This document shows, piece by piece, positions 10,551 through 62,440 of a stretch of 64,000 nt of DNA. Where the stretch lies: NCBI RefSeq assembly GCF_016026235.1, contig NZ_CP065613.1. One strand, given 5' to 3'. The translations under genes were made by a program, and so were the position numbers. The number at the start of each line of letters is the position of its first letter. Within the stretch, counting starts at the first letter, position 1. The stretch is from Escherichia coli (lineage in GTDB: Bacteria > Pseudomonadota > Gammaproteobacteria > Enterobacterales > Enterobacteriaceae). The notes below the pieces were generated by a model. That model ran no database searches, was not told where the DNA came from, and saw only the letters and a list, made by a program, of their open reading frames with translations.

Positions 10551-10570
10551 AACTGTTTTTTTATCCAGTA
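10551..10570. promoter_or_regulatory. LexA (SOS) box of uvrB: aactgtttttttatccagta
   Basis: CTGT-N8-ACAG-type motif about 80 nt upstream of the uvrB start. Confidence 0.8.
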
Positions 10571-19991: not shown

Positions 19992-21232
19992 CAGGGTTTT
20001 ACCCCCGTGTTTTCAGTTTCTACCCGATCCTGCGTTTCCATTGTCGGTTGTGCGGGGGGATCAACCTGCGCCAGACGTGGTGTGTGTGCCGGAAGCCAGC
20101 CAACCAGTGCCGGGAAGTGGCGTAAAAAGTGGAACGCCAGCACGCTTTTGGTCAGGTTCCACCAGGTGCGTTTGGGCAGCATGGTTTCATCCACCTGCTG
20201 ACAATCTGCGGCGATAATGCCGTTCAGATTATCGCGCAGCGTCTGGTTAAAATGACGATCGTGGATGATGACATTTGCTTCGAGATTCAGTGACAAACTG
20301 AGCGGATCGAGATTACTGGACCCTACTGTCGCCCAGTGATCGTCCATCAATGCTACTTTGCCGTGGAGCGGGCGGCGGCGGTACTCAAACACCTGAACGC
20401 CACCTTTTACCAGATAGTTATACAGCAAGCGCGCACCGACTCTGACAATCGGCATATCCGGTTCGCCCTGAATGATCAGTTTGATCCGCACCCCGCGCCG
20501 TGCCGCTTTACGCAAGGCGTGTAAAAATCGATAGCCGGGGAAGAAGTAGGCGTTGGCGATAATGACTTCTCGCCGCGCCTGAGTGAGCATTTTCAGATAG
20601 TGACGTTCAATATCATCGCGATGTTCTTCGTTATCGCGCCAGACCAGCAATACCTGCGCTTCTCCCGGCTGGCGGTTCTCTTCCGCTTTGTGATGACGTC
20701 GCCACCAGCGTCGTGCCGCGCTCTGTCCAGGCAGGTTTTCCAGCTCAAACTGGAGAATATCTTCGACAATCGGCCCTTCAAGGCGTACCGCGTAATCCTG
20801 TTTAGCCTCTGGACCGTAGCTGGACATATGCTCGGCGGAGTAATTCAGCCCGCCAATAAAGGCTATACGCGCGTCGATCACCACAATTTTGCGATGCATC
20901 CGGCGAAACACATTGGTGCGCATACCAAAAAGGCGAGGGCGGGGATCGTAGTAGCGGAACACTACGCCAGCTGCCGTCAGTTCATTGACAAACTCATCGC
21001 TGAGATCCGGCGAACCGTAGCCATCCAGCAAGACTTCCGCTTTAACCCCGCGTTGCGCTGCTGCCAGTAGTGCCGCATGCAGTTGTTTGCCGACGTCATC
21101 CTCAAACCAGATAAACGTTTCAAGAATGATGCGTTCTTGTGCCTCGCCAATCGCCTTAAACACCGCGGGATAATATTGCTCGCCGTTTTCCAGCAACTGG
21201 ATCTTATTGCCTTCGCGCCAGCTACATTTCAT
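19991..21232 (-). CDS. clsB: Cardiolipin synthase B (phospholipase D family), 413 aa
   Basis: ORF 19991..21232; HxK-type PLD motifs; stop/start overlap with ybhN. Confidence 0.9.
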
Positions 21233-29960: not shown

Positions 29961-30443
29961 TTACTTCTCTATAGCCAATTGTTCGCGCAACTCCATTAAA
30001 AGGTAGCCCAGTCGATTCTTGCCCTTACCATTACCACCGTCTCCCCAGTAAGCATCGTTTTCCGTATGCTCAACCAGTTTTGCGGGCGCGGTTGCCAGCA
30101 AGAGCACACGTAGTTCTGCATGCTGTTCGAATTTAGCACGAAGTGCTTTACGCATCACCTGTTCTTTAACCGACTCCCAGTTTTTACGAAGTGGCTTGGA
30201 ACGATTACGCCCCATGCGAGCGGCGACCATGGGGGAAGAAACCCGACGGATCTCTTCGCGGTATTTTTCATCAAGGAATTTTTGTGCCTGAAAATAGTGT
30301 TCGGAGGTGGGCCAGGTTTTCCCGTCAACCTTGATGGGCCAGGCGGCAAAGTTAGAAAAATCACCGTAGTCATCGCTGGTGCTGTAGAAATTTATGATGG
30401 TGTCTTGCATGACGTGTTGGATCCTTTGTGCTCGAACGGGCAT
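29961..30443 (-). CDS. ybiA: YbiA N-glycosidase family protein (DUF1768), 160 aa
   Basis: ORF 29961..30443. Confidence 0.85.
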   Translation of the reverse strand: MPVRAQRIQHVMQDTIINFYSTSDDYGDFSNFAAWPIKVDGKTWPTSEHYFQAQKFLDEKYREEIRRVSSPMVAARMGRNRSKPLRKNWESVKEQVMRKALRAKFEQHAELRVLLLATAPAKLVEHTENDAYWGDGGNGKGKNRLGYLLMELREQLAIEK

Positions 30444-30528
30444 TAAACCGCATTATGTTGGTGGTTATTGCGAGCCGCTTTCCAGAAACAGAAAAACCAT
30501 TACCCCTGAAAACCGAAAAATGCCACAA

Positions 30529-30548
30529 TATTGGCTGTTTATACAGTA
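30529..30548. promoter_or_regulatory. Non-canonical LexA box of dinG (tattggctgtttatacagta)
   Basis: CTG...CAG palindrome with shortened spacer about 20 nt upstream of the dinG start, consistent with the reported dinG SOS box. Confidence 0.6.
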
Positions 30549-30562
30549 TTTCAGGTTTTCTC

Positions 30563-32713
30563 ATGGCATTAACCGCCGCGCTTAAAGCGCAAATTGCCGC
30601 CTGGTATAAGGCGCTTCAGGAACAGATCCCCGACTTTATTCCCCGTGCGCCGCAGCGGCAGATGATTGCGGACGTCGCCAAAACGCTGGCCGGAGAAGAA
30701 GGGCGGCATCTGGCGATTGAAGCACCCACCGGCGTTGGGAAAACGCTCTCCTATTTGATTCCCGGCATCGCCATTGCCCGCGAAGAGCAAAAAACGCTGG
30801 TGGTGAGTACCGCCAACGTGGCATTGCAGGATCAGATCTACAGCAAAGATTTGCCACTGCTGAAAAAGATCATTCCCGATCTTAAATTCACTGCCGCTTT
30901 TGGGCGTGGGCGCTACGTTTGCCCGCGTAATCTGACGGCGCTTGCCAGCACTGAACCCACGCAACAGGATCTGCTGGCGTTTCTTGACGACGAACTGACG
31001 CCAAATAATCAGGAAGAGCAAAAACGTTGTGCGAAGCTGAAGGGCGATCTCGACACTTATAAATGGGATGGTCTGCGCGATCATACGGATATCGCTATAG
31101 ATGATGATCTCTGGCGTCGTTTGAGTACCGACAAAGCCAGCTGCCTCAACCGTAACTGTTACTACTATCGTGAATGCCCGTTTTTTGTTGCTCGTCGGGA
31201 GATTCAGGAAGCGGAAGTGGTGGTGGCAAACCATGCGCTGGTGATGGCGGCGATGGAAAGCGAAGCCGTACTGCCTGACCCGAAAAATCTGCTGCTGGTG
31301 CTGGACGAAGGTCATCACCTGCCAGATGTGGCCCGGGATGCGCTGGAGATGAGCGCTGAAATCACCGCGCCCTGGTATCGACTACAGCTGGACTTGTTCA
31401 CGAAACTGGTCGCTACCTGCATGGAGCAGTTTCGCCCGAAGACCATCCCACCGCTGGCGATCCCTGAACGTTTGAATGCGCATTGTGAAGAGTTGTATGA
31501 GCTTATCGCCTCGTTAAACAACATTCTCAATCTCTACATGCCTGCCGGGCAGGAGGCAGAGCACCGTTTTGCGATGGGCGAACTGCCTGATGAAGTGCTG
31601 GAGATCTGCCAGCGGCTGGCAAAACTCACCGAGATGCTGCGTGGTCTGGCGGAGTTATTTCTTAACGATTTAAGTGAGAAAACCGGCAGCCATGACATTG
31701 TACGCCTGCATCGGTTGATTTTGCAGATGAACCGCGCGTTGGGGATGTTCGAGGCGCAAAGCAAACTCTGGCGGCTGGCGTCTCTGGCGCAATCTTCCGG
31801 TGCGCCGGTGACCAAATGGGCGACGCGGGAAGAGCGCGAAGGGCAGCTGCATCTCTGGTTTCACTGCGTGGGGATACGTGTCAGCGATCAGCTGGAAAGG
31901 CTGCTGTGGCGCAGTATTCCGCACATTATTGTTACCTCCGCAACCTTGCGTTCGCTGAATAGTTTTTCGCGTTTGCAGGAGATGAGTGGTCTGAAAGAGA
32001 AAGCGGGCGACCGTTTTGTGGCGCTGGATTCCCCCTTTAACCACTGCGAACAGGGCAAAATTGTTATTCCCCGGATGCGCGTTGAGCCTTCCATCGACAA
32101 CGAAGAGCAGCATATTGCCGAAATGGCGGCCTTTTTCCGTAAGCAGGTGGAGAGCAAAAAACATCTCGGTATGTTGGTACTGTTTGCCAGCGGACGGGCG
32201 ATGCAGCGCTTTCTCGACTATGTGACGGATTTACGTCTGATGTTGCTGGTTCAGGGCGATCAGCCGCGTTACCGTTTAGTTGAACTGCACCGCAAACGCG
32301 TCGCCAACGGTGAGCGCAGCGTGCTGGTGGGCTTACAGTCATTTGCCGAAGGGCTTGATTTGAAAGGTGATCTGCTCAGCCAGGTGCATATCCACAAAAT
32401 CGCTTTTCCGCCCATCGACAGCCCCGTGGTGATCACCGAAGGGGAATGGCTGAAAAGCCTCAACCGCTATCCGTTTGAGGTGCAAAGCCTGCCGAGCGCC
32501 TCGTTTAACCTGATTCAGCAGGTTGGGCGACTGATTCGAAGCCACGGTTGCTGGGGCGAAGTGGTTATCTACGACAAACGCTTGCTGACCAAAAATTATG
32601 GCAAGCGACTACTGGATGCATTACCGGTATTTCCGATAGAGCAACCGGAAGTCCCTGAAGGTATAGTTAAAAAGAAAGAAAAAACGAAATCCCCACGCCG
32701 TCGGCGGCGTTAA
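30563..32713 (+). CDS. dinG: ATP-dependent DNA helicase DinG, 716 aa
   Basis: ORF 30428..32713 trimmed to MALTAALKAQIAAWYKALQ. Confidence 0.95.
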   Translation: MALTAALKAQIAAWYKALQEQIPDFIPRAPQRQMIADVAKTLAGEEGRHLAIEAPTGVGKTLSYLIPGIAIAREEQKTLVVSTANVALQDQIYSKDLPLLKKIIPDLKFTAAFGRGRYVCPRNLTALASTEPTQQDLLAFLDDELTPNNQEEQKRCAKLKGDLDTYKWDGLRDHTDIAIDDDLWRRLSTDKASCLNRNCYYYRECPFFVARREIQEAEVVVANHALVMAAMESEAVLPDPKNLLLVLDEGHHLPDVARDALEMSAEITAPWYRLQLDLFTKLVATCMEQFRPKTIPPLAIPERLNAHCEELYELIASLNNILNLYMPAGQEAEHRFAMGELPDEVLEICQRLAKLTEMLRGLAELFLNDLSEKTGSHDIVRLHRLILQMNRALGMFEAQSKLWRLASLAQSSGAPVTKWATREEREGQLHLWFHCVGIRVSDQLERLLWRSIPHIIVTSATLRSLNSFSRLQEMSGLKEKAGDRFVALDSPFNHCEQGKIVIPRMRVEPSIDNEEQHIAEMAAFFRKQVESKKHLGMLVLFASGRAMQRFLDYVTDLRLMLLVQGDQPRYRLVELHRKRVANGERSVLVGLQSFAEGLDLKGDLLSQVHIHKIAFPPIDSPVVITEGEWLKSLNRYPFEVQSLPSASFNLIQQVGRLIRSHGCWGEVVIYDKRLLTKNYGKRLLDALPVFPIEQPEVPEGIVKKKEKTKSPRRRRR

Positions 32714-61540: not shown

Positions 61541-62440
61541 TTATCCTCGTAAGGTCGCGGTTAACCCTTTCTGGCAGGCATACTGCTGGGCAAAGTCGAG
61601 CAGTTCTGGCGCATCAAGCGGTTTTTCCGGGGCGTCATAGGGCAGATTAAGTAAGTGATATTTGTTGATGCCCAGCGTGTGGTAGGGCAGGAAATGAATT
61701 TCGCCAACGTGCAGCTCGTCGGCGGCAAAATCGGTAATGGCTTTTACAGAGGTTTCGTCGGCATTAAAGCCCTGAATCAGCGGCACGCGGATAATGATTT
61801 TTTTGCCCGCTGCGGCGAGTTTTTTCAGGTTATCCAGCACCCTGGCGGCGTTACCGTCGGTCCACTGTTTAAACAGCGCGTCGGCAACGTGTTTTAAATC
61901 GGCAAGAAACAGATCGATATAGGGCAGAGAAGGGGTGATATATTTCCACGGCACATGCAGACAGGTTTCTACCGCAGTATGAATGCCGGCCTCGTGGCTG
62001 GCTTGCAGTAGCGCCGTCGCCATTTCCGGCTGCATAAAGGGTTCACCGCCAGAAAGTGTTAAGCCGCCGCCGCTGCGATCGTAAAACGGTTTATCGCGCA
62101 AAACGGTCGCCATGATCTCCTCAACGCTTTTCACTTCACCACACACGGTTAACGCCTGTGTCGGGCAGCAGTCGGTCAACGCCGTCAGATGCTCCGGGGT
62201 TAACTTTTCCCGATGAATAAGCAAACCATTCAACGCGCGCTCAATCACGTCCGGCGCGGCCTTAGCGCACAGCTCGCAGCCTTCCAGACACAGTCGTGCG
62301 TCATACAGCAGATCCTGCGTGCGGGCGCGGCTTTCCGGGTTCTGACACCAGCGGCAGCCCAGCGAACAGCCTTTAAGAAATACGACCGTGCGGATACCGG
62401 GGCCATCATGGGTCGAGTAGCGCTGAATATTGAAAATCAT
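61541..62440 (-). CDS. ybiY: Glycyl-radical-enzyme activating protein (radical SAM), 299 aa
   Basis: ORF 61541..62440; CxxxCxxC (CSLGCRWC). Confidence 0.9.

What the first reader, a model, noticed from the sequence alone, without database searches (positions are those of the whole stretch)
30529..30548. dinG SOS box with a shortened spacer
The LexA-like motif upstream of dinG (ctgtttatacag) has CTGT and ACAG separated by 4 rather than 8 nt, consistent with the reported non-canonical dinG operator. It is a reminder that strict 16-mer scans would miss it.
Basis: established knowledge. Interest (0 to 1): 0.2.

Follow-up and report, generated by a model that had tools for sequence, protein, structure and literature searches.

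The report
Known dinG LexA operator, normal spacing
This is the already published LexA repressor binding site in front of the E. coli DNA-repair helicase gene dinG; it is unusual only because one arm reads TTG instead of CTG, not because its spacer is shortened, so the finding is ordinary.

Summary
Window 30529..30548 reads TATTGGCTGTTTATACAGTA and ends 14 nt before the dinG ATG (30563). It is letter for letter the published dinG SOS box. It is not what makes the operator non-canonical. The literature describes a 20-bp box of normal geometry whose left trimer is TTG instead of CTG (TTG-N10-CAG).

My tests agree with the literature:
- A heterology-index matrix built without dinG ranks this 20-mer second in the 64-kb window, after the uvrB box. 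Every shifted register scores far worse.
- An outgroup orthologue carries CTG-N10-CAG in exactly the same register relative to a conserved extended -10 promoter, and it has no inner CTGT.
- Two Enterobacteriaceae species have lost the inner CTG but keep the rest of the box.
- Erwiniaceae keep GGCTGTTT at the same promoter position outside their own, canonical, LexA box.

The inner CTGT is therefore best read as discriminator and start-site sequence. The site is right, LexA regulation is right, and strict CTG-N10-CAG scans do miss it. The "shortened spacer" reading is wrong. The feature is already known and of low interest. A side observation is that the operator's position has turned over between enterobacterial families.

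The parts
30529..30548 (+). dinG LexA operator (SOS box), 20 bp: TATTGGCTGTTTATACAGTA, which matches the consensus TACTGTATATATATACAGTA at 15 of 20 positions
   Evidence: It is identical to the published dinG box. Its heterology index is the second best in the window. It is 100% identical over a 62-bp query in 5401 of 5421 E. coli genomes and nearly invariant in 80 Enterobacteriaceae species.
30531..30533 (+). Degenerate left-arm trimer TTG, where the consensus has CTG
   Evidence: Read directly from the sequence. [quoted passage not shown] The first base is G in 76 species, T in 3 and A in 1 of 80, and never C. The outgroup locus L094 has CTG in the same register.
30544..30546 (+). Right-arm trimer CAG, exactly 10 nt after the TTG. 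The right half-site TTATACAGTA matches the consensus at 9 of 10 positions
   Evidence: Read directly from the sequence. ACAG is invariant in all the Enterobacteriaceae loci examined.
30535..30546 (+). Its CTGT occupies box positions 7-10 and is not a LexA arm
   Evidence: Located. The inner CTG is lost in Shimwellia (TTGT) and in Kosakonia cowanii (CCGT) while the rest of the box is kept. It is absent from the canonical outgroup box in L094. GGCTGTTT is present at the same promoter position in Erwiniaceae, where it lies outside their LexA box.
30521..30529 (+). Inferred extended -10 promoter element TGcCACAAT (TG at 30521-30522, -10 hexamer at 30524..30529). The last T is also position 1 of the operator
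   Evidence: TG and the A.AAT positions are invariant in 80 Enterobacteriaceae, while the 'n' base varies. The same TGn-xAxAAT element is found in Erwiniaceae, in Pectobacterium and in L094. No experimental start site was found in the papers held, and the simple consensus scan did not call it. This part is an inference.
30500..30505 (+). Possible weak -35 element TTACCC, 18 nt upstream of the -10
   Evidence: Only the TT is conserved (T in 80% and 97% of species). Pectobacterium and Erwiniaceae have CTGACG 17 nt upstream of their -10. This part is an inference.
30563..32713 (+). dinG coding sequence (716 aa, ATP-dependent DNA helicase DinG), the regulated gene
   Evidence: RefSeq annotation of an identical locus. 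Orthologues align from residue 1, MALTAA.

Best explanation
Window 30529..30548 is the LexA operator of the E. coli dinG promoter. It has the ordinary 20-bp SOS-box geometry. A near-perfect right half-site (TTATACAGTA, with CAG at 30544..30546) is paired with a decayed left half-site (TATTGGCTGT), whose trimer is TTG (30531..30533) rather than CTG, exactly ten bases upstream. One LexA dimer binds with one monomer per half-site. Most of the binding energy comes from the right arm, so binding is weak. The box starts at the last base of an extended -10 element (TGcCACAAT) and runs over the predicted transcription start, to about +13. Bound LexA should therefore block RNA polymerase, and RecA-stimulated LexA cleavage after DNA damage should release dinG at low damage doses. 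The inner CTGT that gives the appearance of a 4-nt spacer is discriminator and start-site sequence that happens to lie inside the box.

Shown here: the sequence identity, the scoring, the register, the conservation, and the positional homology to a canonical box in an outgroup.

Taken from the literature: LexA dependence, and damage induction with a low UV dose for half-maximal activation.

Inferred: the promoter elements, the start site and the occlusion mechanism.
For: 1. The sequence equals the published dinG SOS box. [quoted passage not shown] MEME in PMC3009722 aligns it with 17 other SOS boxes in the 20-mer register.

2. In a heterology-index matrix built from the 17 other boxes, the site scores 7.8 (asymmetric) or 11.4 (symmetrised). 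That is within the range of polB, dinB and ftsK, and rank 2 in the window after the uvrB box at 10551..10570. Every register within 10 nt scores above 24. Shuffled windows give 0.125 such sites on average.

3. The outgroup orthologue L094 (DinG 56% identical) reads TGgCAAAAT|GCTGGCTAAAAACACAGTT. This is a CTG-N10-CAG box in the identical register relative to the -10, and it has no inner CTGT.

4. In 80 Enterobacteriaceae, the block from the extended -10 TG to box position 19 is nearly invariant, while the sequence further upstream varies freely.

5. dinG is induced by UV and by ciprofloxacin, is co-expressed with SOS genes, and its promoter has a low UV dose for half-maximal activation (ED50), as expected of a weak operator. 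Salmonella dinG has one box 14 nt from the ATG, with a heterology index of 10.08 and 10.6-fold induction.

6. [quoted passage not shown]
Against: - The left arm is poor: positions 3, 6, 7 and 9 all differ from the consensus.
- A hypothetical model with the spacer shortened by 4 bp scores the inner 16-mer GGCTGTTTATACAGTA very well (pseudo-HI 3.9, best in the window, reached in 0 of 200 shuffles).
- Within Enterobacteriaceae the inner CTGT is at least as conserved as the first base of the outer trimer. Conservation inside that family therefore does not separate the two readings.
- I could not read the primary paper (Lewis et al. 1992) or the LexA ChIP-chip paper. I found no experimental start site.
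- The 20-bp probes used in published binding assays contain both candidate left arms.
Confidence: 0.93

Rival explanations
1. One reading: LexA recognises the inner palindrome CTGT-N4-ACAG, an SOS box whose spacer is 4 nt shorter than normal.
For: The palindrome exists. A collapsed half-site model scores it better than anything else in the window, and no shuffle reaches that score. As an isolated half-site, GGCTGTTTAT matches the consensus half-site at 7 of 10 positions, against 6 of 10 for the outer arm (read). The inner CTGT is invariant in 78 of 80 Enterobacteriaceae.
Against: - The literature defines the operator as TTG-N10-CAG and states that precise 10-bp spacing is required.
- Shimwellia (TTGT) and Kosakonia cowanii (CCGT) have lost the inner CTG but keep every other box position.
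- The outgroup L094 has canonical arms in the outer register and no inner CTGT.
- Erwiniaceae carry GGCTGTTT at the same place with no ACAG partner, and their LexA box is a normal CTGT-N8-ACAG elsewhere in the promoter.
- Moving one half-site 4 bp closer turns it about 137 degrees around the helix, which a dimer with packed DNA-binding domains should not tolerate. This last point rests on established knowledge of the LexA-DNA crystal structure and was not tested here.
Confidence: 0.03
2. The inner palindrome is a separate functional element that overlaps the LexA box. It could be the site of another dimeric regulator, or a small 5' hairpin in the dinG mRNA.
For: GGCTGTTT is retained at the same position relative to the -10 in Enterobacteriaceae and in most of the Erwiniaceae examined, whether or not it lies in a LexA box. 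The RNA can form a 4-bp stem, CUGU/ACAG.
Against: - The ACAG half of the palindrome is absent in Erwiniaceae, so only CTGTTT is shared, not the palindrome.
- The fold is no better than shuffled sequence (z = -1.16; 24 of 200 shuffles fold at least as well).
- The two natural changes in the stem or loop show no compensation.
- Constraint from the discriminator and start site of the promoter explains the conservation more simply.
- No candidate factor is known to me.
Confidence: 0.04
3. The match is a chance resemblance and LexA does not act here.
For: The left arm lacks CTG, and the strict pattern fails.
Against: The expected number of such sites in a 119-bp region is about 0.0002. The site is conserved across a whole bacterial family. 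dinG is damage-inducible and co-regulated with SOS genes in several independent data sets.
Confidence: 0.005

Closest known systems
The published E. coli dinG SOS box (Lewis, Jenkins and Mount 1992, as cited in PMC8265657 and PMC11332147)
   Same: The 20-mer is identical, at the same position 14 nt upstream of the dinG ATG, and shows the same non-canonical feature (TTG for CTG).
   Different: Nothing differs. This is that site.
Canonical gammaproteobacterial SOS boxes, for example the uvrB box in this same window (10551..10570, AACTGTTTTTTTATCCAGTA)
   Same: It has the same 20-bp frame, a CAG right arm, an A+T-rich interior, a position over a promoter, and a heterology index within the functional range.
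   Different: The left trimer is TTG rather than CTG, and positions 6, 7 and 9 are G, C and G rather than T, A and A. The operator is therefore asymmetric and weak. dinG is the only one of the 18 boxes compared that contains a second CTGT.
The Gram-positive LexA (DinR) 'Cheo box', GAAC-N4-GTTC
   Same: It is a LexA operator that really does have a 4-nt spacer between tetramer arms, so it resembles the inner palindrome in form.
   Different: The arm sequence is different, and it is bound by a different LexA orthologue. E. coli LexA is not known to use that geometry. This comparison rests on my own knowledge and was not tested here.
dinG operators of other Enterobacterales
   Same: They sit on the same extended -10 promoter. 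L094 has a box in the same register, and Enterobacteriaceae boxes differ from the E. coli box only at position 3.
   Different: Erwiniaceae carry a fully canonical box, TACTGTGTAAAAATACAG[G/C]C, 13 bp further upstream, over the -10 itself. Pectobacterium carotovorum has the promoter but no recognisable box (best heterology index 21.7).

Membership tests
Gammaproteobacterial LexA operator (SOS box) | Two trimers, CTG and CAG, exactly 10 bp apart within a 20-bp imperfect palindrome | tested here: not met
   The strict pattern does not match. The site reads TTG-N10-CAG: the spacing and the right arm are met, and the first base of the left trimer is not. This one-base exception is the documented peculiarity of the dinG box.
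Gammaproteobacterial LexA operator (SOS box) | Weight-matrix similarity: a heterology index within the range of proven operators (below about 15 according to PMC11002266) | tested here: met
   The leave-one-out heterology index is 7.8 or 11.4, comparable to polB, dinB and ftsK. It is rank 2 in the 64-kb window, and no neighbouring register scores below 24. The chance expectation is 0.125 sites per window.
Gammaproteobacterial LexA operator (SOS box) | The site overlaps the core promoter or start site of the regulated gene | tested here: inconclusive
   The box begins at the last base of a phylogenetically conserved TGn-CACAAT element. That promoter is inferred, not mapped. No start-site data were found, and the consensus scan called nothing.
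Gammaproteobacterial LexA operator (SOS box) | LexA binds the site, and the gene is derepressed by DNA damage in a LexA-dependent way | not testable with these tools
   This rests on the literature only. The box is described as experimentally characterised. The dinG operator was one of the native operator sequences engineered into synthetic recA promoters, and the dinG promoter reporter showed a low UV dose for half-maximal activation. dinG is induced by UV, by ciprofloxacin and, in Salmonella, by nalidixic acid. The primary papers are not held.
Gammaproteobacterial LexA operator (SOS box) | The site is conserved at orthologous promoters | tested here: met
   Of 80 Enterobacteriaceae species, 78 keep 19 or 20 of the 20 positions and the other two keep 18. 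Cedecea, Buttiauxella, Siccibacter and Shimwellia also keep the box. L094 has a canonical box in the same register.
Hypothetical 'short-spacer' LexA site (CTGT-N4-ACAG) | Both inner arms are required, and so are retained wherever the operator is retained | tested here: not met
   The inner CTG is lost in Shimwellia blattae and Kosakonia cowanii while the box is otherwise intact. It is absent from L094, which has canonical outer arms. It is present without an ACAG partner in Erwiniaceae.
Hypothetical 'short-spacer' LexA site (CTGT-N4-ACAG) | E. coli LexA can bind half-sites brought 4 bp closer together | not testable with these tools
   No such binding is reported in the papers I could read. 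PMC5999292 states that precise 10-bp spacing is required.

The most novel reading that the evidence does not exclude
The dinG promoter has a conserved extended -10 core on which the LexA operator has turned over between families. The operator lies over the -10 in Erwiniaceae and over the start site in Enterobacteriaceae and in one outgroup, and it is absent in Pectobacterium. In Enterobacteriaceae the left trimer may be held in a non-CTG state (G, T or A, never C, in about 85 species). If so, selection would be keeping dinG only weakly repressed, and the inner CTGT could act as a competing half-site that tunes LexA occupancy.
Probability: 0.1. Interest if true: 0.35.

Novelty: already known. 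Interest (0 to 1): 0.1.

Why it matters
The finding matters little beyond correct bookkeeping. The dinG box is a textbook example showing that SOS-regulon scans must use weight matrices rather than the strict CTG-N10-CAG pattern. In this window the strict pattern misses dinG and returns 30 hits, of which only the uvrB box is a known LexA operator. Recording the site as a "shortened spacer" would spread a wrong rule about LexA geometry. The cross-family comparison adds a small, tidy case of operator turnover on a conserved promoter.

Tried and rejected
- **Primary papers.** Lewis et al. 1992, Wade et al. 2005 (LexA ChIP-chip) and Zhang et al. 2010 (LexA-DNA structure) are not held. The experimental claims therefore rest on secondary citations.
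- **Start site.** I looked for an experimental dinG transcription start in three data sets and by a text search, and found nothing.
- **Promoter scan.** The built-in promoter scan found no sigma-70 site. The promoter is weak by consensus and was inferred from conservation instead.
- **Protein searches.** The first protein searches returned only close Enterobacteriaceae relatives. The 36-39% identical representatives (L083, L084) had no box and were too distant to be informative.
- **Box-to-box alignment.** I considered aligning the Erwiniaceae and E. coli boxes to each other, which would imply a 4-bp spacer deletion. I rejected this. Anchoring on the extended -10 gives 15 of 20 identities and similar distances to the ATG, and it places the two boxes 13 bp apart.
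- **RNA hairpin.** The predicted hairpin is not better than shuffled sequence.
- **Second palindrome.** The other CTGT-N4-ACAG, at 61865, is in coding DNA.

Full report
**What is there.** The window is E. coli chromosome: a 321-bp query around the site matches 5421 of 5426 complete E. coli genomes. RefSeq annotation of an identical locus places ybiA at 29961..30443 (minus strand), dinG at 30563..32713 (plus strand) and ybiB after it. The finding's coordinates, 30529..30548, read TATTGGCTGTTTATACAGTA and end 14 nt before the dinG ATG.

**Is it more than chance?** As a bare pattern, CTGT-N4-ACAG is unremarkable. It gives 2 hits against 0.63 expected, and the other hit (61865) lies inside a coding ORF. 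As a 20-mer the site is clearly non-random. I built a heterology-index matrix (the formula of Lewis et al., as described in PMC6590174 and PMC8072944) from the 17 other E. coli SOS boxes listed in PMC3009722 Table 4, leaving dinG out.
- The 20-mer scores 7.8 with the asymmetric matrix and 11.4 with the symmetrised one, in the range of polB, dinB and ftsK.
- It ranks second of all positions on both strands of the window. The first is the uvrB operator at 10551..10570, which serves as an internal positive control.
- Every other register within 10 nt scores above 24.
- Dinucleotide-preserving shuffles give 0.125 sites of this quality per 64 kb.

[quoted passage not shown] 1992. PMC3009722 aligns it with the other boxes in the ordinary 20-bp register. 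[quoted passage not shown] Read in that register, the site is TTG (30531..30533), ten bases, then CAG (30544..30546). It matches the consensus TACTGTATATATATACAGTA at 15 of 20 positions, and all five mismatches (positions 3, 6, 7, 9 and 11) fall in or next to the left half. [quoted passage not shown] That study used the dinG operator as one of the native operator sequences engineered into synthetic recA promoters. It also reports that the dinG promoter has a low UV dose for half-maximal activation, as expected of a weak operator. dinG is induced by UV, by ciprofloxacin and, in Salmonella, by nalidixic acid. The single Salmonella box is also 14 nt from the ATG and has a heterology index of 10.08.

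**Does the inner CTGT matter?** This deserved a real test, for two reasons. A hypothetical model with 4 bp removed from the spacer scores GGCTGTTTATACAGTA very well (pseudo-HI 3.9, best in the window, reached in 0 of 200 shuffles). The inner CTGT is also nearly invariant in 80 Enterobacteriaceae species. Within that family, however, the whole block from an upstream TG to box position 19 is invariant, so conservation there cannot separate the two readings. Wider comparison can.
- Shimwellia blattae (TAGTGGTTGTTTATACAGTA) and Kosakonia cowanii (..GGCCGTTT..) have lost the inner CTG but keep the rest of the box.
- In all families examined, the dinG upstream region contains TGn-xAxAAT. This is an extended -10 element in which TG, the A at position 2 and the final T are fixed while the 'n' base varies.
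- Anchoring on that element, an unnamed outgroup contig (L094, DinG 56% identical) reads TGgCAAAAT|GCTGGCTAAAAACACAGTT. That is a CTG-N10-CAG box (heterology index 10.4) in exactly the E. coli register, with no inner CTGT.
- Erwiniaceae (Pantoea, Erwinia, Tatumella and a Rosenbergiella-like contig) carry a fully canonical box, TACTGTGTAAAAATACAG[G/C]C, 13 bp further upstream, over the -10 itself. Downstream of the -10, three of these four still have GGCTGTTT, GCCTGTTT or GGCTGATT at the same position as E. coli, with no CAG arm after it; Pantoea has GGCCATCG there.
- Pectobacterium carotovorum (DinG 69% identical) keeps the promoter (CTGACG-N17-TGgGACAAT) but has no recognisable box.

The inner CTGT is therefore sequence at the discriminator and start region of the promoter. 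It exists independently of LexA boxes, and the E. coli operator is a normal-geometry box whose C at position 3 has decayed. That position is G in 76 species, T in 3 and A in 1 of 80, and never C. A rough calculation shows that one operator in a regulon of about 30 carrying a stray inner CTGT is expected by chance with probability about 0.7. dinG is the only one of the 18 boxes compared that does.

**How it most likely works.** The following steps are inferred. The promoter is the extended -10 element TGcCACAAT (30521..30529), with at most a weak -35 (TTACCC, 30500..30505). Transcription would start near 30536. The operator then covers about -7 to +13, so a bound LexA dimer would exclude RNA polymerase or block open-complex formation. 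The following is taken from the literature: LexA represses dinG, and damage induces it early and modestly. I could not find a mapped start site, and the simple consensus scan calls no promoter here. The small RNA hairpin the palindrome could form is no more stable than shuffled sequence (z = -1.16).

**Verdict.** The feature is real, functional and already known. In this window such a scan returns 30 hits against 14.7 expected, and the only known LexA operator among them is the uvrB box. The spacer is normal, and it is the left trimer that is degenerate. Interest is low. The only mildly new item is the operator turnover on a conserved promoter across Enterobacterales families. It rests on a handful of genomes, and the direction of change is not resolved.

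Noticed in passing
window 10551..10570: The uvrB SOS box AACTGTTTTTTTATCCAGTA lies 76 nt upstream of the uvrB ATG (10646). It has the best heterology index in the window (3.6 or 4.8) and served as a positive control.
   Followed up: partly
whole window: The strict pattern CTG-N10-CAG gives 30 hits against 14.7 expected, and no shuffle reaches 30. CTG and CAG are common E. coli codons, which could explain an excess within genes, but I did not map the hits to genes. The only known LexA operator among the hits is the uvrB box, so the strict pattern is both insensitive and unspecific.
   Followed up: partly
window 32610..32629: TACTGGATGCATTACCGGTA has a heterology index of 11.4 (asymmetric) or 12.4 (symmetrised) and is among the best-scoring sites in the window (third with the symmetrised matrix). 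It lies inside the 3' end of dinG, about 110 nt upstream of the ybiB ATG (32741). It has CGG where CAG is expected. It could be chance, since the median best index in shuffled windows is 13.6.
   Followed up: no
window 30428..32713: A longer ORF starting at GTG 30428 (761 aa) swallows the promoter and the operator. A 761-aa protein cluster with 11,659 member sequences, and many 725-aa Enterobacter entries, show that gene callers often choose an upstream start. Orthologue alignments begin at MALTAA (ATG 30563).
   Followed up: partly
L092 (NZ_OZ547226.1 3188300..3190100), equivalent to window 30535..30542: In E. coli blood isolate AHB21, an ISL3-like ISKox3 element of about 1.3 kb is inserted inside the dinG operator, with an 8-bp target duplication CTGTTTAT. 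The insertion separates the left arm and the promoter from the right arm and dinG. ybiA in that strain is annotated as a pseudogene.
   Followed up: partly
L082, L085-L087 (Erwiniaceae), L093 (Pectobacterium), L094 (unnamed outgroup), compared with window 30500..30562: The LexA operator has turned over on a conserved extended -10 dinG promoter. The box lies over the -10 in Erwiniaceae and over the start site in Enterobacteriaceae and L094. There is no box in Pectobacterium carotovorum.
   Followed up: partly
window 20408..20427: TACCAGATAGTTATACAGCA has a heterology index of 11.0 (asymmetric) or 13.1 (symmetrised), with CCA in place of CTG in the left arm. I did not examine its context.
   Followed up: no
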